Positions 16,098-57,003 are shown, counted from the stretch's first letter. The stretch: 64,000 nucleotides of DNA from Candidatus Multivorans sp. (GCA_965247095.1 OZ251997.1:3456001-3520000); one strand, 5' to 3'. Numbers and translations are program-made. Notes: generated by a model not told the origin, from the sequence alone.

Positions 16098-16103
16098 GCC
16101 GAG

Positions 16104-16163: not shown

Positions 16164-16173
16164 TTTCGATGCT

Positions 16174-31320: not shown

Positions 31321-31343
31321 CGAGAGCGGCAGGATCTACCGTG

Positions 31344-43172: not shown

Positions 43173-45080
43173 TTACGGCGCGAAGCTCGAACGGCCGCTA
43201 ATTCCCCACTCTTCGTTCTCTTTCGTCACCAGGTACAGGGTATTGAAGGTCGAGATCACTTCGCCGGCGGCGTTGTAGCGACTGAAGGTGAGCGCCACGT
43301 TGGCGGCGTTCTCGGCGACCTGGATGGCCTCGATCTCATCCCAGGCGCTGTGGTCCCAGCCGAAGCGCTCGGCGAAGGCGTCGAAGTCCATGTTGGCGAC
43401 GAACTCTTCTTCGGTTTCGGTCACGACCACTTCGCCGCTCGCGAGGCGAAGGTGGGGGAAGTGGAGGGTCGATGCCCAGGCTTGCGGGTCGCGTGCGTTG
43501 AACGCCGTCATGTACTCCTCGACCTTGGCGATGGCGATGGCGGCGTTCGATTCCTGGAGCTCCGCCTCGACCGGTGTACCGGCGTGGAAGCGAGCTTGGA
43601 CGCCCCAGTGGCCGTCAACCTGGGTAGCGACGTAGGTGACGAGGTTGCGGTGTGTCTTGTTGCCCTCCGCATCGACCCGGGCCCAGCGACCGGCGATGTG
43701 CGCTTTGCTGTCGCCCTGGTGGATCGTCCGCAGCTCTTCGACCTCGGTTCGCTCCCAGCCGGTGGCGATGACTCTCGCGTAGTCGACGCCGGCGACGTAG
43801 TCGTCTTGGGTCTGCCAGATCCGATGCGGGCGCAGTTCGTCAAACTTCCAGCTCGACGGACGGGTGTGAGGGTAATTGAGCGAGCTCGCATAGGCGTCGG
43901 GATCGCGGGCGTTCCAGGTCTCCATGAACTTCTCGGTGGCGCGCAGACCCGGGGAGTCAGACGCCGCTGGGGCGGCTTGCACGGGCGGCTCGAGCGCCGG
44001 GGGCGCGCTTCCGGAGTTCCCCAGCGCGTCCGCCTCGAGCACGCGAGCGCCGCGCAGGATGTTCCCCATGGAGTAGTTCCCCTCGTGGCAGGCGTACTCG
44101 AAGACCCGGTCGGTCGTCGAACGCAACACGTACTCGCCGGTCCAGGGCGCTGTCCACGATGAGGGATCGTCCACCGTGAAGCGGTAGAGCACGTCGCCGT
44201 CCTCGAGCTTGGTAAAGCGCTCGACAACGTGCATCTCCGTGGAGCCGCCACGGAGAAACGCCTCGGGATGGAAGTTCGTGGTGTCGACGACCAACGTGTC
44301 GCCCTCCCACCACCCGATCGAATCGCCGGTCCACTTCTTGATCTCTGACGGCAGATGCGCCACGGCGCGCCCCTCGGACTTCATCCGCACCACCCGCGCC
44401 TCGTGGACCATCTCGATCAGGATCATGACGTGGTCCTCGGTCTGGACGATGGTCTTGTAGTTGTTGTACCCGCTGGGGAGCGTCGGCGTGGCGCCGGTGA
44501 ACCCCACGATGCAACGCTCCTGGGCCAGCAGCGACTCCGGACCATCGAAGGGCCCGGGCTCGTCGCTGTCGAGCCAGAATGCTGTGCCGTCGTTGTCGCC
44601 GCGCACGATGTTGGCTTCGAACGCGGCCTTACGCTTGGCCGCGCTCTCGGTCATCGGTGGAAAACGACCGTTCGGTGGATCGATCAGAATCGAAGTACGA
44701 AACCTGCCGTCCACCGCGAAGGCCTCGGTGCCCGGGTCGAGCCAGAAGAAGTTGTAGCCGCCGACGTTGCCAGCACCGCCGTCCGATCCGTCGCCACCCT
44801 CGGGCGGCGCCTCGCGATCCGGATCGCTGGCCTGGGATGTCTCCTCGATTCGCGCAGCCATGTTGCCCTCGGTCCGCGCGGCCTCCTCCCTGCTGAGATA
44901 GAGGTTGTCGCCGAAGCGTTCGGGGCGCTGGAGCGGGGTCACGGTCGCGGCGTTGTAGTTACCCGTGAGATCGGGACGGCCACTGGCCGTGCGCGGCACC
45001 CCGTCGCCGGCGGCGGCGATTCCGGGATTGAGGCCGAGCGTGAGCGCGACGATCGACAGGGATCGGATGACTCTCTTCAA
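43173..45080 (-). CDS. Secreted protein: EYACHEGNY-motif domain fused to two NTF2/SnoaL-like domains
   Basis: Signal peptide, GRPDLTG, GDSIGWWEGDTLVVDTTNF, EYACHEGNY, then two repeats (FMETWNARD / YMTAFNARD). Confidence 0.75.
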   Translation of the reverse strand: MKRVIRSLSIVALTLGLNPGIAAAGDGVPRTASGRPDLTGNYNAATVTPLQRPERFGDNLYLSREEAARTEGNMAARIEETSQASDPDREAPPEGGDGSDGGAGNVGGYNFFWLDPGTEAFAVDGRFRTSILIDPPNGRFPPMTESAAKRKAAFEANIVRGDNDGTAFWLDSDEPGPFDGPESLLAQERCIVGFTGATPTLPSGYNNYKTIVQTEDHVMILIEMVHEARVVRMKSEGRAVAHLPSEIKKWTGDSIGWWEGDTLVVDTTNFHPEAFLRGGSTEMHVVERFTKLEDGDVLYRFTVDDPSSWTAPWTGEYVLRSTTDRVFEYACHEGNYSMGNILRGARVLEADALGNSGSAPPALEPPVQAAPAASDSPGLRATEKFMETWNARDPDAYASSLNYPHTRPSSWKFDELRPHRIWQTQDDYVAGVDYARVIATGWERTEVEELRTIHQGDSKAHIAGRWARVDAEGNKTHRNLVTYVATQVDGHWGVQARFHAGTPVEAELQESNAAIAIAKVEEYMTAFNARDPQAWASTLHFPHLRLASGEVVVTETEEEFVANMDFDAFAERFGWDHSAWDEIEAIQVAENAANVALTFSRYNAAGEVISTFNTLYLVTKENEEWGISGRSSFAP

Positions 45081-45183
45081 ACGCCTACCATGGTATCAAC
45101 CAAATCGGCGACGACCAGGCGCGCGGCGGGCCTTGAAGGCATCGAGCAGAAATTGGCACCTAGCGAAGTGCGGTAGCATGCCC

Positions 45184-45207
45184 ACCAATCCTTAGACCAA
45201 TCCTTAG
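45184..45207. repeat. Perfect 12-bp tandem duplication ACCAATCCTTAG in a divergent intergenic region
   Basis: 45184-45195 equals 45196-45207. Confidence 0.8.
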
Positions 45208-45245
45208 TCTGGAACTGGAGGAGAGAGCCAAATGGCAATCTCGGG

Positions 45246-47228
45246 ATGACAGTGTCGATGCGACATCGTGTTCGAACCCTGGCCTCCCTAACCCTGACCG
45301 CAAGCTGTCTGGCGACCGGCGCCGCGGGCCAGTACGGGGCCGCAGACGGTGAATGGCGAGAGTTCGGTGGCGACAAGGGATCGTCGAAGTACTCGCCGCT
45401 GAGCCAGATCGACGCCTCCAACTTCGCCCAGCTCGAGGTAGCTTGGCGCTGGGAGTCGGCGGATCTTCTCGTTGACGATAAGTCTCCCTACCCGCGACAG
45501 AAGTTTCGCTCGACGCCGCTGATGGTGAACGGGGTCGTCTATGTTCCCACCGAGCTCAGCCAGTTGGCGGCGCTCGATGCGGGCACCGGCGAGCAGCTCT
45601 GGCTCTACGATCCGAAGAGCTACGAGCGGGGCAAGCCGGCACTGCCCGACTACTACACGCGCTCAGTCGTCTACTGGACGGACGGAGCGATCGAGCGCAT
45701 CATCATGGCGACGATCGGCAAACAGCTGGTTTCGATCGACGCTCGAACCGGGCGACCCGATCGTGCCTTCGGCGAGGACGGAATCGTCGATCTGTCGCGC
45801 GATCTGGGGCGCGAGAACGTCGCGGTGCGCAACATCAGTCACGGTGTGCCGGCGATCTTGGTTCGCGACACCCTTGTCCTGGGGTCGAGGATCTTCGATC
45901 TGCCGCCGCGCGACAACAGCCCCCCGGGGCATATCCGTGCCTACGACGTGCGGACAGGCGAGCTCAAATGGCGCTTTCACACCATTCCGCAGGAAGGAGA
46001 GGATTTCGTCGAGACTTGGGAGGCCGGGGCTTGGCGAACGGCGGGCAACACCAACGCCTGGGCACCGCTGAGTGCCGACGAGGAGCTCGGCTACGTCTAC
46101 GTCGCAACCTCGACCCCGACCAACGACTTTTACGGCGGCCATCGTCATGGGGACAATGTCTACGCCGAGAGCTTGATCTGCATCGATGTCACCACCGGTA
46201 AGCGCGTCTGGCACTTCCAGACCGTGCATCACGGGATCTGGGACTACGACATCGCGTCGGCGCCGAACCTGATCGATGTGGTGGTCGAGGGCCGCCTGGT
46301 CAAGGCGGTGGCCCAGGTATCGAAGACGGCCTTCACCTATGTCTTCGACCGTGCCACCGGCGAGCCGATATGGCCGATCGAAGAGCGGCCGGTCAATCAC
46401 GACTCTCCGATTCCCGGGGAGAAGCTGTCACCGACACAGCCCTTTCCGACCAAGCCGCCGGCCTTCGACCGCCAAGGGGTCGTGCTCGACGATCTCATCG
46501 ACTTCACTCCGGAGCTCCATCGAGAGGCTCTCGAGATCGCCGAGGATTACGTGCTTGGACCGATGTTCACGCCGGTCATCGTCAGCGGCGAGAAGGGCAA
46601 GATCGCGGTGGCGGCCGTGCCCAGCGCCGCCGGCGGCGCCAACCATCCGGGCGCTTCGATCGATCCCGATACCGGTTTTCTCTATGTCCCTTCGGTGACG
46701 CTCATCTCGTCGATGGCGGTAGTGAAGCCGGATCCCGCGCGCTCCGACTGGCGCTACGTCCTCGACTCTTTCCGTGGCGTTCCCGGCCCTCAGGGGCTAC
46801 CGCTGGTGAAGCCGCCTTACGGCCGCATCACCGCCATCGATCTCCGGATCGGAGAGCACGCTTGGCAGATCCCCTTCGGTGAAGGGCCGCGGCGGCATCC
46901 GGCAATCAGCCATCTCGACCTCGGCCCGCTGGGTCAGAACCGGGTTGCCAACGAAGGCGGCCTCCTGGTGACCAAGACTCTCCTTATCGGTTACTTCCAC
47001 AAGATGGATGACCGTGGGAAGGAGCTCATCGGCGGCACCGTCCTCCAGGCCTACGACAAGGCCACCGGCGAGCTCCTGGCCGAACTCGAGCTCGACGCCA
47101 CGTTGCACAGTGCGCCGATGACCTATCTGCACCAGGGCCGCCAGTACATCGTCATTGCCGGTGGTGACGCCAAGGGAAGGGAGAGTCCGGTCGAGCAGGC
47201 GCAGCTGCTCGCGCTGGCGCTCCCCTAG
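45246..47228 (+). CDS. PQQ-dependent dehydrogenase (paralogue of 31344-33332)
   Basis: KYSPLSQID, FHTIPQEGE, HHGIWDYD, PTQPFPTKPP, KPPYGRITAIDL; exact start uncertain. Confidence 0.9.
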   Translation: MTVSMRHRVRTLASLTLTASCLATGAAGQYGAADGEWREFGGDKGSSKYSPLSQIDASNFAQLEVAWRWESADLLVDDKSPYPRQKFRSTPLMVNGVVYVPTELSQLAALDAGTGEQLWLYDPKSYERGKPALPDYYTRSVVYWTDGAIERIIMATIGKQLVSIDARTGRPDRAFGEDGIVDLSRDLGRENVAVRNISHGVPAILVRDTLVLGSRIFDLPPRDNSPPGHIRAYDVRTGELKWRFHTIPQEGEDFVETWEAGAWRTAGNTNAWAPLSADEELGYVYVATSTPTNDFYGGHRHGDNVYAESLICIDVTTGKRVWHFQTVHHGIWDYDIASAPNLIDVVVEGRLVKAVAQVSKTAFTYVFDRATGEPIWPIEERPVNHDSPIPGEKLSPTQPFPTKPPAFDRQGVVLDDLIDFTPELHREALEIAEDYVLGPMFTPVIVSGEKGKIAVAAVPSAAGGANHPGASIDPDTGFLYVPSVTLISSMAVVKPDPARSDWRYVLDSFRGVPGPQGLPLVKPPYGRITAIDLRIGEHAWQIPFGEGPRRHPAISHLDLGPLGQNRVANEGGLLVTKTLLIGYFHKMDDRGKELIGGTVLQAYDKATGELLAELELDATLHSAPMTYLHQGRQYIVIAGGDAKGRESPVEQAQLLALALP

Positions 47229-47345
47229 CGGCAGAAAGGATCCGAATAAAATGCTTTCTGGCGGCCTTCTGCTTCGCACCAATTGTCATCGGCCTGCCGA
47301 TCTCTGCCTCGGAAGAGGTCGTCGGCTCGGCACAGGAGAATCGCC

Positions 47346-48950
47346 ATGAAAGAGAACTTGACCCGCTCGGGCATCAACCTGTCACCCGTCTACGGGCCCT
47401 CCGATTCGAACGGGGACTACAGCAAGCGCTTCGGAAATCCGGGCGAGTACCCGTTTACCCGCGGAACCCGTGCCTATTCCGGGCGGGGCTGGATTCAGCG
47501 CGAGTTGTCAGGTGAGGGCGATCCCAAACGCTCGAACGAGCAGTTCAAGTACCTGATGACTCTCGGCCAGACCGGTCTCGATGTGATCGGTGACAGTCCC
47601 ACCATGTCGCTGATGGATCCCGATCATCCACTCGCGCGATATACCGTTGGCACGCAGGGCGTCTCGCTCTGTCGTCATGATGATTACCGCGAATTGCTCG
47701 ACGATATCCCGCTCGACCAGATGTCGATTTCGAGTTCCGGTCCGTCGATGTTCACGGTGGCGAGCCTCTATCTGCTCGCGAAGGAACGCGGTGTCTCGCC
47801 AGGCGTGCTCCGCGGCTCCGTGATCGAGTGGCCGTTCTATTCCGAACATTGCTCCTATGCGTACAAGATGCCCTTCGATCTCCACCTGCGGATGTCCTGC
47901 GACGTCATCGAGTTCTGCAGCAAAGAGATGCCGAGGTTCCACGGATATCTCGAAGACACCTACTTCTTCAGTGAAGCGGGCCTGAACGCAGTCGAGGAGG
48001 CGGCCCTCGGCTTTGTCGAAATCCGCCACATCGTGCGGACGCTTCTCGCACGCGGCCTCGACGTCGACAGCTTCGCCCCGCGCATCGCCATCCTCACGAA
48101 CTGCTCGATGGACTTCTACGAGGAGATCGCGAAAATTCGCGCCATGCGTCGCATCTTCGCGCGCATGATGAAAGAAGAGTTCGGCTCCAGGGACCCGCGC
48201 TCGCAGGCGGTCAACATCGCAGTGCACACCTCGGGACTTTCGCTGACGACCGAGCAGCCGGCCAACAACATCGTGCGTGGCGCGGTGCAGACGGTCGCAC
48301 TCGGACTGGCCGGGGTCAGCGCGCTCGAGATCTCGACCTTTGATGAGGGCTATCGAACCCCCAGCAAGGAGGCGCATCTGGTCGGGCTGCGCACGCAGCA
48401 GGTGATTGACCTCGAGACGAACATCAATAGCGTGCAGGATCCCTTCGGTGGATCGTGGTTCATGGAGTCGCTCACCGACGAGGTGGAGGCCAGGATTCTG
48501 GATATGGTCAACGACATCGAGGCGCGCGGCGATCCGGCCGAGCTGGTCAGCAGTGGTTACTTCAAACAGTTTTTCCACGGCACGATGGGCCGCTACCACC
48601 ACCAGGTGCGCGACGGGGAAGTGTTGAAGGTCGGAATGAATGTGCACCAGATGCCCGCGGAGCAGGACACGCTGCTGCGCGATATCAGCGAAGAGAAGAT
48701 CGAACCGCTGTTCGATCGAGTCAAGGAGATAGCGGCTTACCGCAACAAGCGCGATCAGAAACCGTTGCTGGACTCGTTTCAGCGATTGCACGACGTCGTG
48801 CAGACCGACGAGAACATGCTTGAAGCGGTGCTCGAATGCACGCTGGCCGGGGCAACCATGGGTGAGATTGCCGGCATTCTCCGTCAGGCCTGGGGCACAC
48901 CGTATGACCCCTACGGTCATCTCGAGTCGCCCATCGGAAGTGCGCCATGA
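47346..48950 (+). CDS. Methylmalonyl-CoA mutase family large subunit, divergent active site
   Basis: PGEYPFTRG, GLDVDSFAPR, EEIAKIRA, LRTQQ, DPFGGSW, ATMGEI; AGGAG RBS. Confidence 0.9.
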   Translation: MKENLTRSGINLSPVYGPSDSNGDYSKRFGNPGEYPFTRGTRAYSGRGWIQRELSGEGDPKRSNEQFKYLMTLGQTGLDVIGDSPTMSLMDPDHPLARYTVGTQGVSLCRHDDYRELLDDIPLDQMSISSSGPSMFTVASLYLLAKERGVSPGVLRGSVIEWPFYSEHCSYAYKMPFDLHLRMSCDVIEFCSKEMPRFHGYLEDTYFFSEAGLNAVEEAALGFVEIRHIVRTLLARGLDVDSFAPRIAILTNCSMDFYEEIAKIRAMRRIFARMMKEEFGSRDPRSQAVNIAVHTSGLSLTTEQPANNIVRGAVQTVALGLAGVSALEISTFDEGYRTPSKEAHLVGLRTQQVIDLETNINSVQDPFGGSWFMESLTDEVEARILDMVNDIEARGDPAELVSSGYFKQFFHGTMGRYHHQVRDGEVLKVGMNVHQMPAEQDTLLRDISEEKIEPLFDRVKEIAAYRNKRDQKPLLDSFQRLHDVVQTDENMLEAVLECTLAGATMGEIAGILRQAWGTPYDPYGHLESPIGSAP

Positions 48951-49351
48951 GCCCGATTCGTGTGCTGGTTGGCGTGCTGGGCATGGACCAGCACGAACTC
49001 GGCGCAGTCGGCATCGCCAGGATGCTTCGCGACCAGGGTATGGAGGTGATCTATACCGGTTGCTTCAATACCCCGGAGACCATCGTGCAGACTGCCATTG
49101 AAGAAGACGCGGATGTCATCGGCATCAGCTCTCATTCCTGGGAGTATCTGTACTACACACCCGAACTACTCGAGCTGCTGAAACAGAACGACCTCGATGT
49201 GCCCGTGGTCCTCGGTGGTTCGGTCATTACCGAGGAGGACGCCGGGAAGATGCTCGACAAGGGTGTCGCAGCAGTATTCGGATCCGGTAGCGTAGTGACC
49301 GACATGATCGATACCGTCAGAAACCTGGCGGCCAGTGCCGCGACATCCTGA
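48947..49351 (+). CDS. Cobalamin-binding small subunit of the mutase
   Basis: DQHELG (DxHxxG), GMEVIYTG, IGISS, VLGG; ATGA overlap. Confidence 0.92.
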   Translation: MSPIRVLVGVLGMDQHELGAVGIARMLRDQGMEVIYTGCFNTPETIVQTAIEEDADVIGISSHSWEYLYYTPELLELLKQNDLDVPVVLGGSVITEEDAGKMLDKGVAAVFGSGSVVTDMIDTVRNLAASAATS

Positions 49352-50306
49352 GCCCACAGTCGACGAACTGGTTGCCGGCACGATTCGCGGCGACCTTCGT
49401 TCGGCGTCGCGGCTCATCCGGATCATTGACGACGGCAGCGCGCTCGCGTGGGACGCGCTGAAGCGACTGTTCCCGCATTCCGGGTCGGCGCTCGTCCTTG
49501 GTATCACTGGTCCTCCCGGTGCAGGCAAGAGCACCCTTGCTGATTGCCTGATCCGAAATGCGCGGCAGTCCGGGAAGACCGTCGGCGTGCTCGCTGTCGA
49601 TCCCAGCAGCCCCATTTCCGGCGGCGCGATTCTGGGCGATCGCATTCGCATGAATCGCTTTGCGCTGGATCAGGACGTGTTTATCCGCTCGCTCGCCAGC
49701 CGGGGTCATTTTGGCGGGATCACACCCGCGACTCGCGGCGCCATACGCGTCATGGATGCGATGGGTAAGGACGTAGTTCTGGTCGAGACAGTCGGCGTCG
49801 GGCAAGACGAGGTCGACATCGCCCGCCTTGCGCACACGACGCTCGTAGTCACAGTTCCGGGGCTCGGCGACGAGATCCAGGCAATGAAGGCCGGCATCCT
49901 CGAAGTCGGCGACGTCTTTATCGTGAACAAGGCGGACCGTCCAGACGCGGACAAAACGGTCGCCTATCTCGAGAACGTCTTCCGTCGGATCCCGGCAGGT
50001 CATTGGCGCCCCCCGGTGATCGAGGCCCAGGCGTTGCACAACAAGGGCATCGAGGACATCTGGCAGGCGATCGTTCAACATCAGAACCACCGCGAGGAAG
50101 CCGGCCCGGCACAGCGCGCGCGCGAGCGCGCCAACTGCGAGGTTGAGTTAAGGGCCTTTCTTCAACAAGGGCTTCAGCGCGAACTGGCAAGACAACTCGA
50201 CAACGAGCCCGAGATCCAGAAGTCGGTGCAGAGCATCCTCGATGGACAGGCCGACATCTATGCGGCCACGGACGACATCCTCGGCAAACTCGGGTTGTTA
50301 CCTTGA
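49335..50306 (+). CDS. meaB: MeaB/ArgK G-protein chaperone
   Basis: GITGPPGAGKST, AVDPSSP, GDRIRM, ETVGVGQ, NKAD. Confidence 0.93.
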   Translation: MPRHPEPTVDELVAGTIRGDLRSASRLIRIIDDGSALAWDALKRLFPHSGSALVLGITGPPGAGKSTLADCLIRNARQSGKTVGVLAVDPSSPISGGAILGDRIRMNRFALDQDVFIRSLASRGHFGGITPATRGAIRVMDAMGKDVVLVETVGVGQDEVDIARLAHTTLVVTVPGLGDEIQAMKAGILEVGDVFIVNKADRPDADKTVAYLENVFRRIPAGHWRPPVIEAQALHNKGIEDIWQAIVQHQNHREEAGPAQRARERANCEVELRAFLQQGLQRELARQLDNEPEIQKSVQSILDGQADIYAATDDILGKLGLLP

Positions 50307-51332
50307 TGCCGCCAACGCCGCCTCTTCTGCCCGCGCCCCGGCGAGGATCCCCTCCAGGCCGTAGTTGCCCTCGTGACAGGCGAACTCGAAGAGATCGTCG
50401 GGCGACTTCTTGAGCGGGATCATCACGGTCCACGGCTCCGTCCAGGTCTTTGGATCGTCGAGCGTGACCACGTACTCCAGGGTCTCGGGCCCCACCCGAG
50501 TCAGCCGTTCCACAAGCTGCAAGTTGCCGGTCGCTCCCCGGTAGCCACCGGCGTCCGAGAAGTTGCGGGTCTCGATGACCAGAGTCTCACCTTCCCAGTG
50601 ACCCCTCGAGTCGCCGTGCCAAAGCCGGACGTCCTCCGGCAGGTGGGGCCTGCCGTCGATCGGGACGACGCGCGCGTCGTGAATCATCTCCATGAGCAGG
50701 ACGACATGGTCCTCGCCCTGAAAAATCTGGGTGTAGCTGTTGTAGGCGGCGCGGAGCCGAGGTACGCCGAAGGAGATGCAGCGCTCGGTGAGGCTGCGAT
50801 CCTCCGGACCCGCTGCCGGTTGATTCCTGGCCGCACGGAACCCGGCGGCACGCTTCTCGCCTTCGTCCGTCAGGGCGGGCAGGCGGCCGTTTGGAGGGTC
50901 GACGATCAGCGACGTGCGATTGTCCCAGTCGCGCTCGGCCACCCAAAACTGGTTGTAGTTGCCTGTGGCGGCGTCCGTCGACGTGAACGACTCTGTTCCG
51001 TTCAGAGCGGCGTTGAAGACGCTGTCGCCAAACGCGGCATCGTCACTATCGAGAGCGAAGAGCGACTCCGCCGTCTGCCGGATCGCGGCCAGCTCGGCGT
51101 CGGTGAGGGTCTCCCGACCGGCTAAGGCCTCGGGCCGCTCGAGCGGAGTCGCGATGTTGTTGGCCCAGACCCCCTGGAGATCAGGCTGACCGAAGACGTT
51201 GCGCGGCGCCTTCCAGCCGCTGTCGGCGGCCGCCCCGGCTGCGGCGACGGCCGGCACGACCCCAACGATTCCTACGAGAGCCAGGGCGAACGGCAGCCGG
51301 GTCAGCGGCGTGCCTGCGCTGCGGCAAGTCAT
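50298..51332 (-). CDS. Secreted hypothetical protein, EFACHEGNY-motif family
   Basis: GQPDLQGVW, RTSLIVDPPNGRLP, GDSRGHWEGETLV, EFACHEGNY; paralogue of the 43173 N-terminal domain. Confidence 0.8.
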   Translation of the reverse strand: MTCRSAGTPLTRLPFALALVGIVGVVPAVAAAGAAADSGWKAPRNVFGQPDLQGVWANNIATPLERPEALAGRETLTDAELAAIRQTAESLFALDSDDAAFGDSVFNAALNGTESFTSTDAATGNYNQFWVAERDWDNRTSLIVDPPNGRLPALTDEGEKRAAGFRAARNQPAAGPEDRSLTERCISFGVPRLRAAYNSYTQIFQGEDHVVLLMEMIHDARVVPIDGRPHLPEDVRLWHGDSRGHWEGETLVIETRNFSDAGGYRGATGNLQLVERLTRVGPETLEYVVTLDDPKTWTEPWTVMIPLKKSPDDLFEFACHEGNYGLEGILAGARAEEAALAASR

Positions 51333-51422
51333 CGCGATCTCCTTTCGCGGCCAGCTCCGGCCATGACGGTCTTTCTTCGCATCTCGCCAACCAGATCGAA
51401 CTGATAATGACACGAGAGGAGC

Positions 51423-51479
51423 CTACTTCACCACGAACTTCTGGATCCGGTTCCCCGTATTGACCTCACCCGTGTGGGC
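51423..51479 (-). pseudogene. C-terminal stub of an NHL-repeat protein
   Basis: TGEVNTGNRIQKFVVK-stop with no upstream body. Confidence 0.45.
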
Positions 51480-51538
51480 GCTTGTCGCGCCGACGGCCTG
51501 GGATGTCGCGACGACATCTACCTGGAGCATCCGACTTC

Positions 51539-52462
51539 CTAGTCGGCGATAACGTGCGCCAGAAAGCCGCGGATTACCTCGTAGGCCGCCCGCGTCTGCT
51601 CGGCGCTGAAACGGCCGTGGCCGCCTCCGGGGATGGTGTGCAGCTTGTTCGCGACTCCGGCTTCCTTGAGCTTTGCGTGCAGCCGGACGGCGTGGTCGTA
51701 AGGCACGTTCGGGTCGGCGTCGCCGTGAATGGTGAGGATCGGCGGCAGGTCGTCGCGCACCATGTTGAGCGGCGAGAGCTGTTTGCCGAGCTCGCTTCTG
51801 TTCGGCAGGCTTCCCATCCACGCCACTGCGTAGGTCTTGGCGTTCTCCCCCTCGACCAGGTCCGGTACGTCGGTGATGCCGTACCAATTGACGATCGCCG
51901 CGACAGGCATCTCCTCCACCACCGCGTCGGCGGAGGTGGGGGAGCGCTGCGGACACCGATTGTCGAAGCCGTCGCCGGCAGTCAGCATGCCGGTGGTCAG
52001 CGATAGATGGCCTCCTGCCGAGTGACCGGTAACGACGAGCCGATCGACGTCGAGGTCGTACTGCTCGGCGTTATTGCGGATCCATCGCAGCGCGCAGCGG
52101 CAGTCCTCTACCGCACCGGGGGCGAGAGCGACGCGGCCAAGCCGGTACTCGACGTTGACCACGGCCCACCCCATGCTGAGATAGGGCATGAGACGCATGA
52201 GGTTGCTCTCCTTCGTGCCGCTGACCCAGCCACCGCCGTGGATGTATACCAACGTCGGGGTGAGCGACGGGTCTTCTCCCTGAAGCGGCAGGATCAGGTC
52301 GAGCTTCGACTCGTAGCCGTCGGCAACCAGGTAGGTCTGGTTCGGGATCACTCGGAAGTAACTCTCGGCCTCCGCCGCCCAGTTGGCGGGAACGCTCGGC
52401 TGCGCCGTTGTACCTCCGGCCGCAAGAGCCAAGACAAGTAGTGGCAGAGAGACGCTTCGCAT
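51539..52462 (-). CDS. Secreted alpha/beta hydrolase (HGGG esterase)
   Basis: IHGGGW, GHSAGG, HGDADPNVP, GGGH. Confidence 0.9.
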   Translation of the reverse strand: MRSVSLPLLVLALAAGGTTAQPSVPANWAAEAESYFRVIPNQTYLVADGYESKLDLILPLQGEDPSLTPTLVYIHGGGWVSGTKESNLMRLMPYLSMGWAVVNVEYRLGRVALAPGAVEDCRCALRWIRNNAEQYDLDVDRLVVTGHSAGGHLSLTTGMLTAGDGFDNRCPQRSPTSADAVVEEMPVAAIVNWYGITDVPDLVEGENAKTYAVAWMGSLPNRSELGKQLSPLNMVRDDLPPILTIHGDADPNVPYDHAVRLHAKLKEAGVANKLHTIPGGGHGRFSAEQTRAAYEVIRGFLAHVIAD

Positions 52463-52855: not shown

Positions 52856-54028
52856 ATGAGCCAAGGAGGGCGTTTCAACGCCATTGCGCTCGAACGTGTG
52901 GTATTCGGTCGCCCGGCCGCCGAGGTCGTACCCGGCGAGCTCGAGCGGCTGGGCCGCTCGCGGGCCTGCCTGCTGGTGAGCGACAGCTTGCGGACGGGCA
53001 CCTCCGAGGTCTCGGATTTGGAGGAAGCGCTGGGAGGCGCGGCGGTGGGGACCTACTCCGGGATGCCGCCGCACACCCCCCGCGAGGCGGTCATCGAATG
53101 TGCGGCGCTTGCCCGCGAAAGCAGAGCCGACATCATCGTCACTTTAGGGGGAGGGTCGCTTACTGATGCCGGCAAGGTGGTTCAGCTTTGCCTGGAACAT
53201 GACGTCACCGAGCCCGAGGGGCTCGAGCCATTCATCACCCGTACCGCGGCGGACGGCCGCGTGGAGAGCCCCGCGATCCGGGCGCCGCGGGTGCGGCAGC
53301 TCACCTTGCCGACCACGCTCTCCGGGGGGGAGTTCGGATTCGGTGCAGGCTGCACCGACAGCGCGCGGCGGATAAAGCAAACGTACCGGCACGCGTTGTT
53401 CGTGCCGCAGGTCGTGGTGCTCGACCCGGCGCTGACCTTGCACACGCCCGAGTCGTTGTGGCTCTCGACAGGTATTCGCGCGGTCGACCATGCGGTGGAG
53501 ACGCTGTGCTCGCCGCGCGCGACCGCGCACTCCGACGGCCCCGCCCTGCATGCGCTGCGTCTGCTCGGCGCGGGCTTGCGGCGTTCCAAGGCGGACCCCG
53601 CAGACCTCGATGCCCGGCTGGATTGTCAGCTCGGGGTATGGGCTTCGATGGAGCACAACCAGGATGGCATCCCGATGGGCGCGAGCCACGGGATCGGTCA
53701 TGTCCTCGGCGGCACCTGCGGGGTGCCTCACGGGCACACGTCGTGCGTCATGCTGCCCGCGGTCCTCGACTGGAACGCCGAGGCGAATCCCCAGGCGCAA
53801 GCGCGGGTCAGCGAAGCACTGGGGCGCCCGGGCGAGCCCGCGTCGCAGGTGGCGGACGAGCTCGTGCGAGAGCTCGGTCTGCCCCGGAGTTTGACCGAGG
53901 TTGGCGTCTCGAGGGAGCAGTTCGACTTGGTGGCGAGGAACGCGATGCACGATCGATGCATTCACACCAATCCTCGGGCGATCCACGGTCCCGAGGACGT
54001 TCTCGAAATTCTCGAACTTGCCGCTTGA
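52856..54028 (+). CDS. Iron-containing alcohol dehydrogenase / maleylacetate reductase-like, copy 2
   Basis: Same length as copy 1; about 29 amino-acid differences by manual count. Confidence 0.9.
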   Translation: MSQGGRFNAIALERVVFGRPAAEVVPGELERLGRSRACLLVSDSLRTGTSEVSDLEEALGGAAVGTYSGMPPHTPREAVIECAALARESRADIIVTLGGGSLTDAGKVVQLCLEHDVTEPEGLEPFITRTAADGRVESPAIRAPRVRQLTLPTTLSGGEFGFGAGCTDSARRIKQTYRHALFVPQVVVLDPALTLHTPESLWLSTGIRAVDHAVETLCSPRATAHSDGPALHALRLLGAGLRRSKADPADLDARLDCQLGVWASMEHNQDGIPMGASHGIGHVLGGTCGVPHGHTSCVMLPAVLDWNAEANPQAQARVSEALGRPGEPASQVADELVRELGLPRSLTEVGVSREQFDLVARNAMHDRCIHTNPRAIHGPEDVLEILELAA

Positions 54029-54036
54029 GGTTAACG

Positions 54037-54075
54037 ATGCGCATCTGGATCGCTCAGATCAGTCACGAGACCAAC
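54037..54075 (+). pseudogene. M81/MlrC peptidase N-terminal stub
   Basis: MRIWIAQISHETN after RBS GAGG; matches the typical MlrC start xHETN. Confidence 0.65.
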
Positions 54076-54104
54076 TACGCCGATTCTTACAGCGCGCAAA
54101 GTTG

Positions 54105-55130
54105 TTATGAAACTGGACGATACAAGGTCGCCGGCGCCAACACTTTCCGATCTTGTCCTGTCATCGGACTTGGACCGAAGTCTATTTCGATGATTATGTA
54201 ACGAACTAGCTCAAGCCCCAGATCAATTTCATCAGGAGGTCGGCTCGGGCGGTATAGGTGCAACGTCATCGCGGTACATGTTTCCGTTTTGACTCCTTGC
54301 GCATCCGAGACCATTTCGACATGGAACATATCTTCGAAATGATGTTCAAGGTAATACTCAAGAGGGATGAATCCACAGGGTACTTCTACAAAGGCAAGAC
54401 TGTACCCAGTATCCATCCCGATAAGGTGACACATCCCCATTGAGTCCGCATTTCCTTGAAATAGTTGCCGCAAGACACCAAGGTAAAGTGGCAGTTTATC
54501 AGGACTGTACTGACGTGCCCCCTGCTGTTCAAACCAGAAAACCGGTTGGGTGATTCGTTCGAGGATGAGTGCATTGCTCAACACATCTTCGGCCATACCA
54601 TGTGGTAGAAAGGCAAGTCCGTTCATCAGGCAGGCCATGATCTGCGCGAGTACCGCGCGATCCGTTGCATTGTGTTGCAGATCCAAAGCCTCACACAAGG
54701 CACTTCGAACCCGCTCGTCGACGGCTACTCCCTGGCGTGATAAATCACGAAACACCTGATGCATATGGTCTTGAGCATCTAGGGCCAAATAGTGAATGAC
54801 ACCAGGACCCTGCACCATATGTTGTTTTTTTATGCCAAGTGCTCCGATGCCTACACCACACCCTGTTTCGATAATGACGGTACCAGGCGGTGCCGTCAAG
54901 ACCCTTTCGAAGTCAGGACCAAGGTTCCGGCGGTAGAGGCTCACCGGGCGGATGACCATGCACTGAGCACGGTATTGCCGATAATCTGCTGCGAAACCGA
55001 CATTGTCGTTCCCATAGGTGTTGGTGCTTTGAGGGTTTTCGTCGAGGACTCTGAATAGCACGCCTGCTTCTGATTCTTGTGGTGGATACCAGGTTGTTTG
55101 AACGAGATCAGTATAATTCTCTAAGACCAT
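54105..55130 (-). CDS. Low-GC hypothetical protein, possible SAM-dependent methyltransferase fold
   Basis: 341 aa ORF, visibly AT-richer than flanks; VIIETGCGVGIG followed by YLALD. Confidence 0.6.
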   Translation of the reverse strand: MVLENYTDLVQTTWYPPQESEAGVLFRVLDENPQSTNTYGNDNVGFAADYRQYRAQCMVIRPVSLYRRNLGPDFERVLTAPPGTVIIETGCGVGIGALGIKKQHMVQGPGVIHYLALDAQDHMHQVFRDLSRQGVAVDERVRSALCEALDLQHNATDRAVLAQIMACLMNGLAFLPHGMAEDVLSNALILERITQPVFWFEQQGARQYSPDKLPLYLGVLRQLFQGNADSMGMCHLIGMDTGYSLAFVEVPCGFIPLEYYLEHHFEDMFHVEMVSDAQGVKTETCTAMTLHLYRPSRPPDEIDLGLELVRYIIIEIDFGPSPMTGQDRKVLAPATLYRPVS

Positions 55131-55286
55131 GCCCTTCTCCTGGGTTGAATGAGGTGCAGAAACAACTGAATAGCGGACCGTTTCGCACCAGTGGGGGTGG
55201 TGGTGAGGGCGTCGTTCACGGCGCGACCATCGCGTCCGCAACCGGAGTCACCATGGCGAGTGTAGAGTTCATCGTTGGAGGTTGAC

Positions 55287-56990
55287 ATGAAGTGTCGCGC
55301 ATTACTCACAGCCTACGTATGCGCCGCCGTCGCCATGGCGACGGGGTCTCTCGGCCAGGCGCAAGTCCAAGACTTCACCCCGGTCACCGATGCGATGCTG
55401 CAGAATCCCGACCCGGCCGACTGGTTGAGCTGGCGGCGCACCCTGAATGGATGGGGGTATAGCCCGCTTGAACAGATCGACCGGAGCAATGTCGATGAGC
55501 TCCGGCTCGCCTGGTCCTGGGGCCTCGAACCCGGAGTGTCGCAGACGACGCCGATCGTGCACGACGGCGTCATGTATGTCGCGAACCCAGGCAATGTGGT
55601 CCAGGCGCTCGACGCGCGCACCGGCGACTTCATGTGGGAGTACCGCCGTGAGATGGACGTGCGACGCCGAAGCGCGGCGCAGACGCGCAGCATTGCCGTC
55701 TACCAGGATCTGGTGATCCTGAACACTGTCGATGCGCACATCGTCGGGCTGGATGCCCGGACGGGCGAGGCGCGCTGGGATACGCCGGTCGGGGGCGATC
55801 AGGAAGGCTACACCTTTTCGAACGGACCGATCGTCGTCGATGGGACGATCGTCGCCGGGATGACAGGCTGCGGGCGTTACCGTGACGACACCTGCTACAT
55901 CGTCGGCGTCGACGGCCGCACCGGCCGGTTGCTCTGGCGAACCTCGACCATCGCCCGGCCCGGCGAGAGCGGCGGCGACACCTGGGGCGATTTGCCGCTC
56001 ATGTTTCGCGCGGGGAGCGACGCCTGGATGACTGGAAGCTATGACCCGGTCACCGGGCTCGTCTACTGGGGTACGTCGCAGCCCAAGCCGCATAACCGCG
56101 ACGCACGCGGCACCGACGGTGACGCCCTCTACAGCAACTCGACGCTCGCGCTCGACCCTGCGACCGGTGAGATGAGGTGGTACTACCAGCACATCCCGGG
56201 CGATGCGCACGACATGGACGAGTCGTTCGAGCGCATCCTGATCGACTACGACGGCAAGCGTTCGCTGTTCACTATGGGCAAGCTCGGGATTCTCTGGGAA
56301 CTCGACCGCTTCACGGGCGAGTTCCGGCGCGCGATCGACCTCGGCTATCAGAACATCCTGGATGTCGACTCGCAGACCGGTGAGGTGACTTACCGGGACG
56401 GGATGCTAACCGACGTCGGCGAAGAGCTCTCCTTCTGCCCCAGTACTGGTGGCTTCAAGAGCCTGCGGGCGATGGCGTATCACCCCGGGACCGAGGCGTT
56501 GTACGTGCCGCTCAGTCTCAGCTGTCAGACCGTCACATTCGGCCCGGTCGAGCGACGCGCCGGGGGCGGCGGCGGGGGCAGCAGGCCCGGACGGACGAAT
56601 CACTTTCATCCGCAGGCGCCGAACCAACTGGGCGAGTTTCAAGCGCTGGACCTGCGGACCGGCGAGACCCTCTGGCGCCAGCGCCGCCGGGTGCCCTACA
56701 ACACGGCGGCGCTGACGACCGGCGGGGACCTGGTGTTCATCGGCGACTGGGGCCGGCACGTCTTCGCCTACGACGTGCGGAACGGCGAGCCGCTCTGGCA
56801 GAGCCGGCTCTCGACGATGGCGAACGGGTTCCCGATCACTTATGCCGTCGACGGCAAGCAGTTCGTCGCGTTCGTGGCCGGCCCGTCGATCAGCCGCTCG
56901 AGCTGGGCGACAATTCTCCCGGCCGACCTCATACCCGAAGAGCACAACCCGCGGGGCGGTAGCGGCGTCTTCGTGTTCGCGTTGCCCTAG
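55287..56990 (+). CDS. PQQ-dependent dehydrogenase (alcohol DH-like)
   Basis: DWLSWRRT, YSPLEQID, AWMTGSYDP, WYYQHIPGD, FPITYAVDGKQF. Confidence 0.9.
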   Translation: MKCRALLTAYVCAAVAMATGSLGQAQVQDFTPVTDAMLQNPDPADWLSWRRTLNGWGYSPLEQIDRSNVDELRLAWSWGLEPGVSQTTPIVHDGVMYVANPGNVVQALDARTGDFMWEYRREMDVRRRSAAQTRSIAVYQDLVILNTVDAHIVGLDARTGEARWDTPVGGDQEGYTFSNGPIVVDGTIVAGMTGCGRYRDDTCYIVGVDGRTGRLLWRTSTIARPGESGGDTWGDLPLMFRAGSDAWMTGSYDPVTGLVYWGTSQPKPHNRDARGTDGDALYSNSTLALDPATGEMRWYYQHIPGDAHDMDESFERILIDYDGKRSLFTMGKLGILWELDRFTGEFRRAIDLGYQNILDVDSQTGEVTYRDGMLTDVGEELSFCPSTGGFKSLRAMAYHPGTEALYVPLSLSCQTVTFGPVERRAGGGGGGSRPGRTNHFHPQAPNQLGEFQALDLRTGETLWRQRRRVPYNTAALTTGGDLVFIGDWGRHVFAYDVRNGEPLWQSRLSTMANGFPITYAVDGKQFVAFVAGPSISRSSWATILPADLIPEEHNPRGGSGVFVFALP

Positions 56991-57003
56991 GGAGGATGAC
57001 GGC

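What the first reader, a model, noticed from the sequence alone, without database searches (positions are those of the whole stretch)
47346..50306. B12-dependent mutase with a rewired substrate barrel: candidate new radical rearrangement
Seen versus recalled family consensus: WTMRQ(Y/F)AGFG is WIQRELSGEG, SVAFD is DVIGD, GTIQND is GSVIEW, ISGYH is EDTYF, SFFF is AILT, FHTQT is IAVHT, SLHTN is ALEIS, while scaffold motifs, the DxHxxG subunit and MeaB are intact. Known: the Tyr89-equivalent position sets specificity (Tyr MCM, Phe ICM, Ile HCM, Leu pivalyl-CoA mutase) and His244 is normally conserved. Inference: a new substrate, perhaps bulky or not a CoA ester.
Basis: partly seen in the sequence, partly recalled or inferred. 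Interest (0 to 1): 0.75.

Follow-up and report, generated by a model that had tools for sequence, protein, structure and literature searches.

The report
Uncharacterised B12 acyl-CoA mutase clade
A three-gene cassette encodes a vitamin-B12-dependent acyl-CoA mutase from a widespread, well-conserved but unstudied branch of the family whose substrate pocket is almost entirely re-lined, so it probably rearranges a CoA ester that nobody has yet identified.

Summary
Window 47346-50306 (+) encodes a mutase large subunit (534 aa), a DxHxxG B12-binding small subunit and a MeaB GTPase. Alignments to solved MCM and HCM chains confirm the replaced pocket residues: Tyr89->Leu, Arg207->Ser, His244->Phe, Gln330->His, His364->Glu and HCM Asp117->Ile. 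Tyr243, Glu370, Arg87 and Arg283 are kept. This is not decay. More than 120 homologues at 58-97% identity keep the variant motifs invariant. The clade is monophyletic (support 100, stem about 1 substitution per site). It lies across a fully supported split from the MCM, HCM, PCM and IcmF anchors, and AU tests reject joining it to HCM or PCM. The host genome also has a canonical MCM and an IcmF, each with its own G-protein. In anaerobic relatives (53-64% identity) the mutase sits beside an orthologous FabG-like dehydrogenase (32 of 55 loci), an enoyl-CoA hydratase (17), acyl-CoA ligases and TetR. A CoA ester is therefore likely, and "not a CoA ester" is not supported. The substrate remains unknown. 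Such non-canonical pockets are common: only 47 of 121 family representatives keep His244. Verdict: a real member of an uncharacterised specificity clade, a new variant of a known kind, of moderate interest.

The parts
47346..48950 (+). Acyl-CoA mutase large (substrate-barrel) subunit, 534 aa. The open frame reaches back to TTG 47283, but ATG 47346 is the likely start.
   Evidence: PF01642 416 bits and TIGR00641 362 bits. AGGAG 8 nt upstream of the ATG. Homologues are 531-541 aa. AF2 model pLDDT 91.3; best fold matches are HCM 4r3u (TM 0.87-0.88), then MCM and IcmF.
48947..49351 (+). Small B12-binding subunit, 134 aa, with DxHxxG (D14-Q-H16-E-L-G19). Its start overlaps the large-subunit stop by 4 bp.
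   Evidence: PF02310 86 bits and TIGR00640 107 bits. Found directly downstream of the large subunit in 22 of 25 subclade-A loci and 49 of 55 subclade-B loci.
49335..50306 (+). MeaB-type G-protein chaperone, 323 aa, with P-loop GPPGAGKST and NKAD. It overlaps the small-subunit end by 17 bp if the GTG start is used.
   Evidence: PF03308 286 bits; TIGR00750 308 bits, above its cut-off of 240.75. Adjacent in 17 of 25 subclade-A loci. One of three MeaB-type genes in the genome.
47330..47345 (+). Ribosome-binding region (AGGAG) before the large-subunit start.
   Evidence: Read directly from the sequence.
45246..47228 (+). Upstream PQQ-dependent dehydrogenase (660 aa), 117 bp before the mutase. It is a neighbour only, and a functional link is doubtful.
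   Evidence: PF01011 599 bits. The gene upstream of the cassette differs among relatives whose mutase is 96-98% identical.

Best explanation
The three overlapping genes form a working split adenosylcobalamin-dependent acyl-CoA mutase. The parts are a barrel subunit, a His-on B12-binding subunit, and a dedicated MeaB GTPase that loads and repairs the cofactor.

The enzyme belongs to a conserved clade for which I found no characterised member. Shown: the radical-generating and CoA-holding scaffold is kept, while the residues that in MCM, ICM, HCM and PCM read the acyl group are replaced and then frozen across the clade.

Inferred mechanism. Homolysis of the AdoCbl Co-C bond gives a 5'-deoxyadenosyl radical. 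That radical abstracts a hydrogen atom, and the CoA-thioester group then shifts 1,2 in a short acyl-CoA that has no free carboxylate (there is no Arg207 or Tyr89). The substrate is different from those of the MCM and IcmF encoded elsewhere in the same genome. His244 is replaced by Phe, so polarisation of the thioester carbonyl must come from another residue. His315 (at the Gln330 position) and Glu349 (at the His364 position) are candidates; this is inference.

Best guess for the substrate class is a hydroxy- or methyl-branched acyl-CoA whose rearranged product is a 3-hydroxyacyl-CoA or an acyl-CoA that beta-oxidation can handle. In the anaerobic half of the clade the mutase is coupled to an orthologous FabG/(3R)-hydroxyacyl-CoA-dehydrogenase-like SDR, a crotonase, acyl-CoA synthetases and a carboxylate-type ABC importer. 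The exact substrate is not known.
For: Family membership and fold.

Residue map (5req_A numbering). Kept: Arg82=R68, Arg87=R73, Tyr243=Y227, Arg283=R267, Asp369/Glu370=D354/E355. Changed: Tyr89->L75, Ser114->D100, Ala116->I102, Phe117->G103, Arg207->S191, His244->F228, Ser285->A269, Phe287->L271, His328->A313, Gln330->H315, His364->E349, Asn366->S351.

Conservation:
- All of these are invariant in 24 members at 59-97% identity.
- More than 120 homologues lie at 58-97% identity.
- 167 of 198 pattern matches in one-genome-per-species contigs are relatives.

Distinctness:
- The nearest full-length non-clade representative is 41% identical; the one clade representative is 53%.
- The clade has support 100 and a stem of 1.01 substitutions per site. 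A split with support 100 separates it, with 20 unnamed representatives, from the MCM, HCM (two), PCM and IcmF anchors (FastTree agrees).
- AU tests reject clade+HCM (p 3.8e-6) and clade+PCM (p 0.0086).

Non-redundancy:
- The genome also has a canonical MCM-type large subunit (714 bits) and an IcmF.
- It has three MeaB-type G-proteins and a PduO-type adenosyltransferase.
- D. alcoholivorax likewise has two canonical mutases plus one clade member.

CoA context, 55 subclade-B loci:
- Orthologous SDR in 32, within 500 bp in 26.
- ECH in 17.
- AMP ligase in 17.
- TetR in 10.
- ADP-forming synthetase in Chloroflexi loci, and ACAD, 3HCDH and SCP-x-type thiolase in D. alcoholivorax.
- The SDR's best solved relatives are FabG and (3R)-hydroxyacyl-CoA dehydrogenase.

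Weak hint of expression. Contigs from two sponge RNA libraries cover parts of the large subunit exactly (X19). One 2332-nt contig at about 94% identity spans 47325-49281 (X20). DNA carry-over in those libraries is not excluded.
Against: - No biochemical datum exists for any clade member, so activity and substrate are inferred.
- His244 is missing. From recall, its loss lowers kcat of MCM by two to three orders of magnitude.
- In the window's own subclade (25 loci at 71% identity or more) none of the SDR, ECH or ligase partners is adjacent (0 of 25). The genome has no close orthologue of them, 41% identity at best apart from one generic ABC-associated ligase at 46%. The pathway inference therefore rests on relatives that are only 53-64% identical.
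- The flanks of the cassette differ even among near-identical relatives.
- Leu at the Tyr89 position is shared with the X. autotrophicus Xaut_5043 protein, so a known pivalyl/isovaleryl-type reaction is not excluded.
- No ECM anchor was in the trees.
Confidence: 0.5

Rival explanations
1. Same chemistry, different pocket. The clade catalyses a reaction that is already known, using an independently evolved active site. The most plausible candidates are 2-hydroxyisobutyryl-CoA <-> (R)-3-hydroxybutyryl-CoA (HCM/RCM type) and pivalyl-/isovaleryl-CoA or isobutyryl-/butyryl-CoA.
For: - The tight pairing of a FabG-like SDR with the mutase in 26 of 55 subclade-B loci mirrors the acetone cluster of Desulfococcus/Desulfosarcina. 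There a '3-oxoacyl-ACP reductase' oxidises the 3-hydroxybutyryl-CoA made by a B12 mutase (PMC7888143, passages read).
- HCM is the best sequence and fold match.
- A ligase next to the mutase is also the Aquincola/Xanthobacter/ELW1 2-HIBA layout.
- Leu at the Tyr89 position is shared with Xaut_5043.
Against: - The HCM signature is absent: Ile90 is Leu and the hydroxyl-binding Asp117 is Ile102.
- AU tests reject a clade with HCM or with PCM.
- The D. biacutus mutase is called 'RcmAB-like' in PMC7176365 (passage read), so it is not evidently of this clade.
- No ThDP enzyme lies in any of the 80 loci.
- D. alcoholivorax already has an ICM-like paralogue with the Phe/Gln signature, and the host genome has an IcmF.
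Confidence: 0.3
2. New chemistry on a substrate that is not a CoA thioester, or migration of a group other than the thioester carbonyl.
For: - His244, which in the known enzymes assists migration of the thioester carbonyl, is Phe.
- Tyr75, Thr77 and Met78 of the CoA-binding N-terminal stretch are changed or deleted, and Ser114 is Asp.
- In the window's subclade no CoA-forming enzyme is adjacent (0 of 25).
- Several acidic residues are new near the pocket: E74, E78, D100, E224, D225 and E349.
Against: - The Arg87, Arg283, Thr195(Ser) and Gln361 (Gln in most members) equivalents are kept.
- Acyl-CoA enzymes are the conserved neighbours in subclade B.
- The pocket residues are identical in both subclades, so the two probably share one substrate class.
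Confidence: 0.08
3. A catalytically dead or regulatory paralogue, like the MutA beta subunit of P. shermanii MCM, or a decaying gene.
For: Many canonical active-site residues are lost. TIGR00641 scores only 362 bits, just above its cut-off of 303.8, and is the lowest of the proteins compared.
Against: - The frame is intact, with its own B12-binding subunit and MeaB, and the genes are translationally coupled.
- The variant residues are invariant over 59-97% identity and across several phyla.
- Tyr243, Asp369 and Glu370 are kept.
- The model is confident.
- Solved MutA/beta chains match far worse (75 and 54 bits).
Confidence: 0.04

Closest known systems
2-Hydroxyisobutyryl-CoA mutase HcmAB (Aquincola tertiaricarbonis, PDB 4r3u) and the RCM of Kyrpidia tusciae
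   Same: - Split architecture of large subunit, small DxHxxG subunit and MeaB-like G-protein.
- Best sequence match (278 bits) and best fold match (TM 0.87-0.88, 31% identity).
- No Arg207 or Tyr89.
- Gene neighbourhoods with an acyl-CoA ligase and a 3-hydroxyacyl-CoA dehydrogenase.
   Different: - HCM Ile90 is Leu75, and the hydroxyl-binding Asp117 is Ile102.
- His244 is Phe, Gln330 is His, and His364 is Glu.
- AU test rejects a common exclusive clade (p 3.8e-6).
- Only about 31-35% identity.
Pivalyl-CoA/isovaleryl-CoA mutase, taken here as X. autotrophicus Py2 Xaut_5043/5044 (assignment recalled from Kitanishi et al. 2015, paper not seen)
   Same: - Leu at the Tyr89 position.
- Split subunits with an adjacent MeaB.
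- A TetR, a 660-aa AMP ligase and a BCAA-type ABC transporter in the cluster, as in subclade-B loci such as L026, L029 and L033.
   Different: - Xaut_5043 keeps His244 and has Gln at the Tyr243 position, with the motifs RQLIGLG, VVGQHM and FHGQT.
- It lies on the other side of the 100-supported split.
- AU p 0.0086 against grouping.
Methylmalonyl-CoA mutase (P. shermanii 1req, human 2xij) and IcmF (4xc6)
   Same: Same Pfam/TIGRFAM domain and same barrel fold. Tyr243, Glu370, Arg87 and Arg283 are kept.
   Different: - No Tyr89/Arg207 (MCM) and no Phe/Gln (ICM) signature.
- NF006944 scores 297 bits against a cut-off of 876, and NF045497 152 bits against 1500.
- The same genome already encodes both enzymes.
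B12 mutase plus FabG-like 3-hydroxybutyryl-CoA dehydrogenase of the acetone pathway in Desulfococcus biacutus and Desulfosarcina cetonica
   Same: An SDR annotated as 3-oxoacyl-ACP reductase is encoded beside a two-subunit B12 mutase (PMC7888143). A tight SDR-mutase pair is also the hallmark of subclade B.
   Different: - That mutase is described as RcmAB-like (PMC7176365).
- Its cluster holds a ThDP enzyme, and none was found in 80 loci here.
- I could not obtain its sequence, so membership in this clade is untested.

Membership tests
AdoCbl-dependent acyl-CoA mutase family (PF01642 / TIGR00641) | Substrate-barrel domain scoring above the curated cut-offs | tested here: met
   PF01642 416 bits (cut-off 22.1). 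TIGR00641 362 bits (cut-off 303.8).
AdoCbl-dependent acyl-CoA mutase family (PF01642 / TIGR00641) | Fold of the solved mutase barrels | tested here: met
   AF2 model pLDDT 91.3. Foldseek gives 4r3u TM 0.87-0.88, and MCM and IcmF TM 0.79-0.87.
AdoCbl-dependent acyl-CoA mutase family (PF01642 / TIGR00641) | Partner B12-binding domain with DxHxxG (His-on, base-off binding) | tested here: met
   D14-Q-H16-E-L-G19 in the 134-aa subunit. PF02310 86 bits and TIGR00640 107 bits.
AdoCbl-dependent acyl-CoA mutase family (PF01642 / TIGR00641) | MeaB-type G-protein chaperone | tested here: met
   TIGR00750 308 bits, above its cut-off of 240.75. The P-loop and NKAD are present.
AdoCbl-dependent acyl-CoA mutase family (PF01642 / TIGR00641) | Adenosyl/radical scaffold residues Tyr243, Asp369 and Glu370, and CoA-phosphate arginines Arg87 and Arg283 (roles recalled from the MCM structure papers) | tested here: met
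   Y227, D354, E355, R73 and R267 align to them and are invariant in the clade.
AdoCbl-dependent acyl-CoA mutase family (PF01642 / TIGR00641) | His244, present in all characterised members | tested here: not met
   Phe228, invariant in 24 clade members. Only 47 of 121 family representatives have His here, so it defines the characterised groups rather than the family.
AdoCbl-dependent acyl-CoA mutase family (PF01642 / TIGR00641) | AdoCbl-dependent isomerisation of an acyl-CoA | not testable with these tools
   Needs an enzyme assay.
Methylmalonyl-CoA mutase | Tyr89 + Arg207 carboxylate-binding pair; NF006944 equivalog score | tested here: not met
   Leu75 and Ser191. NF006944 scores 297 bits against a cut-off of 876.
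Isobutyryl-CoA mutase / IcmF | Phe at the Tyr89 position and Gln at the Arg207 position; NF045497 score | tested here: not met
   Leu75 and Ser191. NF045497 scores 152 bits against a cut-off of 1500.
2-Hydroxyisobutyryl-CoA mutase (HCM/RCM) | Ile90 + Asp117 signature; grouping with HCM in a tree | tested here: not met
   Leu75 and Ile102. AU p 3.8e-6 against a joint clade.
Pivalyl-CoA mutase | Leu at the Tyr89 position; grouping with Xaut_5043 | tested here: inconclusive
   The Leu is shared. The other pocket residues differ, and AU p 0.0086 rejects a joint clade. The PCM identity of Xaut_5043 is recalled, not verified here.
Ethylmalonyl-CoA mutase | Grouping with a characterised ECM; Tyr/Arg pair | not tested
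   No ECM anchor sequence was obtained. The Tyr/Arg pair is absent here.

The most novel reading that the evidence does not exclude
The clade catalyses a carbon-skeleton rearrangement not yet known for B12 acyl-CoA mutases, on a new acyl-CoA class. Examples would be a longer or differently substituted 2-hydroxy-2-methyl- or 3-hydroxy-branched acyl-CoA, or an amino-substituted acyl-CoA that the new acidic residues could hold. It would do so with a catalytic apparatus that dispenses with His244 and uses His315/Glu349 instead. Because the clade occurs in marine sponge symbionts, Gammaproteobacteria, Desulfobacterota, Chloroflexi and other lineages, it would mark an unrecognised B12-dependent route in the breakdown of branched organic acids.
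Probability: 0.5. Interest if true: 0.75.

Novelty: new variant of a known kind. Interest (0 to 1): 0.55.

Why it matters
Each new specificity in this small enzyme family (MCM, ICM/IcmF, ECM, HCM/RCM, PCM) has opened a pathway or a biotechnological route, for example to 2-HIBA, to quaternary carbons, or to synthetic CO2 fixation.

This clade is large. Thousands of metagenomic proteins match it, and 167 hits fall in species-representative genomes. It is strongly constrained, and I found no member with a name beyond 'methylmalonyl-CoA mutase family protein'. Its Phe at the His244 position would also test how essential that general acid is for thioester migration.

One cultured carrier exists (Desulfotruncus alcoholivorax DSM 16058), so the question can be addressed experimentally.

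The survey also shows that most metagenomic representatives near this clade lack the canonical pocket. The family's known chemistry is therefore probably a small sample of what it does.

Tried and rejected
- The HCM structure paper PMC4392272 is not held. The roles of Ile90, Asp117, Tyr89, Arg207 and His244 are therefore recalled. They are supported only by PDB titles (H244A and Y89F mutant entries) and by the anchor signatures.
- Plasmid collection: 427 records hit, all below 36% identity, so there is no clade member there.
- A second homologue search from a Desulfobacteraceae member was meant to find cultured or named carriers, especially D. biacutus or D. cetonica. All 120 listed hits were MAG or metagenome proteins.
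- A ThDP-enzyme probe (partial ELW1 protein) against the 80 loci gave no hit. The probe is weak, so absence is not proven.
- ESM Atlas returned only 'putative methylmalonyl-CoA mutase' clusters.
- Literature. Searches found no paper on this clade or on a family-wide survey. D. multivorans proteogenomics mentions only the canonical Sbm.
- The AU test under the C20 mixture model did not finish in three 300-s calls. It was replaced by LG+G4 on 29 rows.
- Tree error. In one search the row 'G000_par_canon' was a wrong-frame 615-aa ORF, with an end branch of 2.96. It was left out of the trees. The correct 569-aa frame was used only.
- Model coordinates are not exposed, so the CoA tunnel and pocket volume could not be measured.
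- Complex prediction was not used. A large/small subunit pair is a textbook pair, so the result would not be informative.
- The promoter/terminator scan of 45000-51600 found nothing above shuffles.
- Parts of the stretch without cover in the RNA-library contigs (for example MeaB 49376-50245 in X19 and X20) are not evidence of anything.
Full report
WHAT IS THERE

On the + strand of the window lie three tightly packed genes.
- A mutase large subunit. The open frame starts at TTG 47283. The likely start is ATG 47346, which gives 534 aa. An AGGAG lies 8 nt upstream, and homologues are 531-541 aa.
- A 134-aa B12-binding subunit at 48947-49351. Its ATG overlaps the preceding stop.
- A 323-aa MeaB GTPase at 49335-50306.

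Family scans support all three.
- Large subunit: PF01642 scores 416 bits, and TIGR00641 scores 362 bits against a cut-off of 303.8.
- Small subunit: PF02310 scores 86 bits and TIGR00640 107 bits.
- MeaB: PF03308 scores 286 bits and TIGR00750 308 bits.

The small subunit carries D-Q-H-E-L-G, the DxHxxG motif. MeaB has GPPGAGKST and NKAD.

THE OBSERVATION

HMMER alignments to solved chains confirm each motif replacement. The Y89F mutant chain 5req_A has Phe at chain index 88, which fixes the P. shermanii numbering as index + 1. This gives the following map (P0001 numbering; subtract 21 for the ATG-47346 protein).

Changed residues:
- Gln88->E74, Tyr89->L75, Phe92->E78
- Ser114->D100, Ala116->I102, Phe117->G103
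- Gln197->I181, Arg207->S191
- His244->F228
- Ser285->A269, Phe287->L271
- His328->A313, Gln330->H315
- Ser362->A347, His364->E349, Asn366->S351

Kept residues: Arg82 (R68), Trp84, Arg87 (R73), Gly91, Asp118, Thr195 (as Ser179), Tyr243 (Y227), Arg283 (R267), Thr331, and Asp369/Glu370 (D354/E355).

In HCM numbering, Ile90 aligns to L75 and the hydroxyl-binding Asp117 to I102.

One caveat applies to residues 177-197. The HCM alignment inserts a one-residue gap there. The Gln197 equivalent could then be residue 182, which is Glu in the window and Gln in most clade members, and the Arg207 position could be a deletion.

The functional roles of these residues are recalled from the MCM and HCM structure literature. 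I could not read those papers. The PDB entries for the H244A and Y89F mutants show only that these positions were studied.

| Anchor | Tyr89 position | Other signature | His244 |
|---|---|---|---|
| S. meliloti ScpA and the genome's canonical paralogue (MCM type) | Tyr | Arg at 207 | kept |
| A D. alcoholivorax paralogue and the genome's IcmF (ICM type) | Phe | Gln at 207 | kept |
| Xaut_5021 and the ELW1 plasmid enzyme (HCM type) | Ile | Asp at 117 | kept |
| Xaut_5043 (PCM, recalled) | Leu | - | kept |
| This clade | Leu | Ser at 207, Ile at 117 | Phe |

NOT DECAY, BUT A CONSERVED CLADE

- A word-indexed search returned more than 120 proteins at 58-97% identity. They come from Actinomycetota, Gammaproteobacteria, Desulfobacterales and unclassified MAGs, including marine samples.
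- In an alignment of 24 of them at 59-97% identity, the variant residues are invariant. These include W70, R73, E74, L75, S76, G77, E78, G79; D100, I102, D104; R177, G178, S179, P184, F185, E188, C190, Y192; E224, D225, Y227, F228, F229; R267-L271, N273, C274; H315, T316; and E349, S351, F353, D354, E355.
- A scan of one genome per species found 198 pattern matches, of which 167 encode relatives. The 80 kept loci span several groups:
  - 'Candidatus Multivorans' and other Acidobacteriota MAGs, several from sponges (93-97% identity)
  - Gammaproteobacteria and Actinomycetes MAGs (71-91%)
  - Desulfobacterota, Syntrophia, Chloroflexi, Rokubacteria, Binatia, Alpha- and Betaproteobacteria, and Bacillota (53-64%)
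- Only one carrier is cultured: Desulfotruncus alcoholivorax DSM 16058 (L041, 59%).

DISTANCE FROM EVERYTHING CHARACTERISED

An exhaustive phmmer search over 1.84 billion 50%-identity representatives gave 11,599 hits.
- Only one full-length representative belongs to the clade (P0125, 53%, 607 bits).
- The next full-length hits drop to 41% (372 bits), then to 33-39%.

No plasmid record reaches 36% identity. TIGR00641 scores tell the same story.

| Group | TIGR00641 bits |
|---|---|
| Canonical MCM-type, ICM-like and HCM anchors | 684-831 |
| Xaut_5043 | 477 |
| Three unnamed neighbours (P0130, P0132, P0138) | 450-517 |
| This clade | 362-394 |

Trees:
- A FastTree of 127 rows and an IQ-TREE (LG+C20+F+G4, quick search, SH-aLRT) of 59 rows agree.
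- The clade is monophyletic with support 100, on a stem of 1.01 substitutions per site.
- A split with support 100 puts the clade and 20 unnamed representatives on one side. All anchors and 26 representatives lie on the other: MCM, two HCM, Xaut_5043, and the genome's IcmF.
- AU tests under LG+G4 on 29 rows reject an exclusive grouping with HCM (p 3.8e-6) and with Xaut_5043 plus P0213 (p 0.0086).
- The same test under the mixture model did not finish.

Limits of the trees:
- No ECM, IaaGH, RcmA or D. biacutus sequence was available.
- Xaut_5021 is labelled HCM from synteny (small subunit - ligase - MeaB - large subunit), from its Ile/Asp signature, and from recall.
- The ELW1 label rests on the locus annotation and on the title and abstract start of PMC13188929, seen only in a search listing.
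- The PCM label of Xaut_5043 is recalled.
- A wrong-frame row was dropped afterwards.

FOLD

An AlphaFold2 model from a 64-sequence alignment is confident, with pLDDT 91.3 and pTM 0.92. Its best PDB matches are HCM 4r3u (TM 0.87-0.88, 31% identity), then human, M. tuberculosis and P. shermanii MCM, then IcmF. Glutamate mutase and the aminomutases come far behind.

GENOMIC SETTING IN THE HOST

The window lies in a single 4.62-Mb contig. That genome encodes:
- Three PF01642 genes: a canonical split large subunit (714 bits, Tyr/Arg signature), this gene, and an IcmF (NF045497 1262 bits on a partial frame).
- Three MeaB-type G-proteins, one of them about 7 kb from the canonical mutase and one inside IcmF.
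- A PduO-type adenosyltransferase.

The cassette is therefore a third, separately chaperoned B12 mutase and not a replacement.

Around it lie a PQQ dehydrogenase (117 bp upstream), alpha/beta hydrolases, an SDR, a lactonase-like protein, two Fe-ADH copies and more PQQ dehydrogenases. I do not think these define the pathway, for three reasons.
- The upstream gene differs even among relatives whose mutase is 96-98% identical.
- In Gammaproteobacteria and Actinomycetes loci the flanks are unrelated genes.
- Across 25 subclade-A loci the only recurring partners are the small subunit (22) and MeaB (17).

CONTEXT IN THE REST OF THE CLADE

Counts for the 55 loci at 53-64% identity:

| Partner | Loci (of 55) |
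|---|---|
| Small subunit following the large subunit | 49 |
| MeaB adjacent | 2 |
| Orthologous SDR (50% identity or more to the L026/L041 SDRs) | 32 (26 within 500 bp, usually directly upstream) |
| Orthologous enoyl-CoA hydratase (55% or more) | 17 |
| AMP-forming acyl-CoA ligase | 17 (8 at 60% identity or more) |
| TetR regulator | 10 |

Many of these loci are short contigs. Among the 40 with at least 1 kb on both sides, 25 have the SDR and 27 have the SDR or the ECH.

Typical operons:
- L026, L029 and L033: TetR - ECH - SDR - large - small - ABC ATPase - 640-aa AMP ligase - BCAA-type permeases and binding protein.
- D. alcoholivorax: TetR - large - small - ECH - AMP ligase - SDR - TetR - ECH - ACAD - 3HCDH - DUF35-like OB-fold protein - SCP-x-type thiolase - two AMP ligases.
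- Chloroflexi loci carry an ADP-forming acyl-CoA synthetase instead.

The best solved relatives of the partners are as follows.
- SDR: FabG, (3R)-hydroxyacyl-CoA dehydrogenase, BbsD and acetoacetyl-CoA reductases.
- ECH: crotonases, including a 3-hydroxypropionyl-CoA dehydratase.

This is the setting of an acyl-CoA enzyme that feeds a beta-oxidation-like route for an imported carboxylic acid.

The host genome has no close orthologue of these partners. The best is 41% identity, apart from one generic ABC-associated ligase at 46%. The transfer of this inference to the window is therefore indirect. It rests on the identical pocket residues in both subclades.

MECHANISM

Shown:
- An intact AdoCbl-mutase scaffold, its B12-binding partner and a chaperone.
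- Retention of the Tyr243, Glu370, Arg87 and Arg283 equivalents.
- Replacement of the acyl-reading residues.
- Conserved acyl-CoA neighbours in the anaerobic half of the clade.

Inferred:
- The usual radical 1,2-shift of the CoA-thioester group.
- It acts on a small acyl-CoA without a free carboxylate, and different from the MCM and IcmF substrates.
- The tight pairing with a FabG-like dehydrogenase is also seen with the B12 mutase of the acetone pathway of Desulfococcus/Desulfosarcina (PMC7888143, passages). That makes a hydroxyacyl-CoA product the best single guess.
- The SCP-x thiolase with a DUF35-like partner in D. alcoholivorax points to methyl-branched intermediates.
- With Phe at the His244 position, another residue must polarise the carbonyl. 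His315 or Glu349 are candidates. Alternatively, the rearrangement is slower or proceeds differently.

The D. biacutus enzyme is called RcmAB-like in PMC7176365 (passage), and no ThDP enzyme lies in any of my 80 loci. I therefore do not equate the two systems.

HOW UNUSUAL IS IT?

I examined the 121 cluster representatives of 480 aa or more among the best 150 hits.
- Only 47 have His at the His244 column.
- Only 28 have Tyr243 and His244 together.
- The Tyr89 column reads Y 32, L 18, I 17, F 14, V 12.
- Asp118, Gly91, Asp369 and Glu370 are nearly universal.

This sample is biased towards the query's side of the family. It still shows a broad radiation of non-canonical pockets, of which this clade is one. 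It is the most divergent of those compared here, and a well-populated and sharply conserved one.

I found no paper on this clade or on a family-wide survey. Subscription papers and supplements were not seen.

EXPRESSION HINT

DNA contigs from runs labelled sponge metagenome hold the stretch. Two sponge metatranscriptome libraries hold parts of it.
- X19 has contigs over 47019-47290, 47873-48054 and 48491-48692 with no differences, and over 48751-48901 with one difference.
- X20 has one 2332-nt contig at about 94% identity over 47325-49281, covering the large subunit and most of the small one.

Contigs cannot show strand or level, and DNA carry-over is possible. This is a weak hint only.

VERDICT

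- A new specificity is the most likely reading: about 0.5 for a reaction not yet described, and about 0.3 for a known reaction in a new pocket.
- A non-CoA substrate is unlikely (about 0.08).
- Decay is very unlikely (about 0.04).

It is a new variant of a known kind of enzyme, worth a biochemical screen and made practical by one cultured carrier.

Noticed in passing
window 39632-40804 (+) and 52856-54028 (+): Two 390-aa Fe-dependent alcohol dehydrogenase genes, 93% identical (361 of 389), flank the mutase region 13 kb apart. This looks like a recent duplication.
   Followed up: partly
window 31224-33332, 45246-47228, 55275-56990, 56842-58914 (all +): Four PQQ-type beta-propeller dehydrogenase genes lie within 28 kb. 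The last carries a cytochrome c domain. The best NCBIfam subfamily hits of the 45246 gene are below their cut-offs, including 'acido-empty-quinoprotein group A'.
   Followed up: no
L030, L031, L033, L058 (e.g. L033:10133-10756 +): A 207-225-aa protein with no Pfam match even at E <= 1 follows the small mutase subunit in 4 of 55 subclade-B loci, at 54-76% identity to one another. It may be an unknown accessory of the mutase.
   Followed up: partly
window 8658-18288 (-): A type I restriction-modification system (HsdR fused to a Schlafen/AlbA_2 domain, HsdS, HsdM) with an AbiEii-type nucleotidyltransferase toxin gene inserted between S and M.
   Followed up: no
window 54001-56000; ORF 54105-55241 (-): A local GC dip to 0.568, against about 0.65 elsewhere, over a 378-aa ORF with no Pfam family. 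The ORF is conserved in the close relatives as cluster 12.
   Followed up: no
window 60982-62196 (+): A DDE transposase (DUF4372 + DDE_Tnp_1) next to a DUF3604 gene.
   Followed up: no
family-wide (representatives P0125-P0274): Only 47 of 121 representatives of the MM_CoA_mutase family near this query keep His244. Many form further unnamed groups with their own pocket motifs, for example INAYNL, VNMYDL and LGGYVF in place of ISGYHI.
   Followed up: partly
L001-L012 versus window 45246-47228: The gene directly upstream of the cassette differs among relatives whose mutase is 95-98% identical. It is a 918-aa protein, a PQQ dehydrogenase, or a hydrolase. The Acidobacteria MAGs L008-L012 and L024 lack the adjacent MeaB.
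   Followed up: partly
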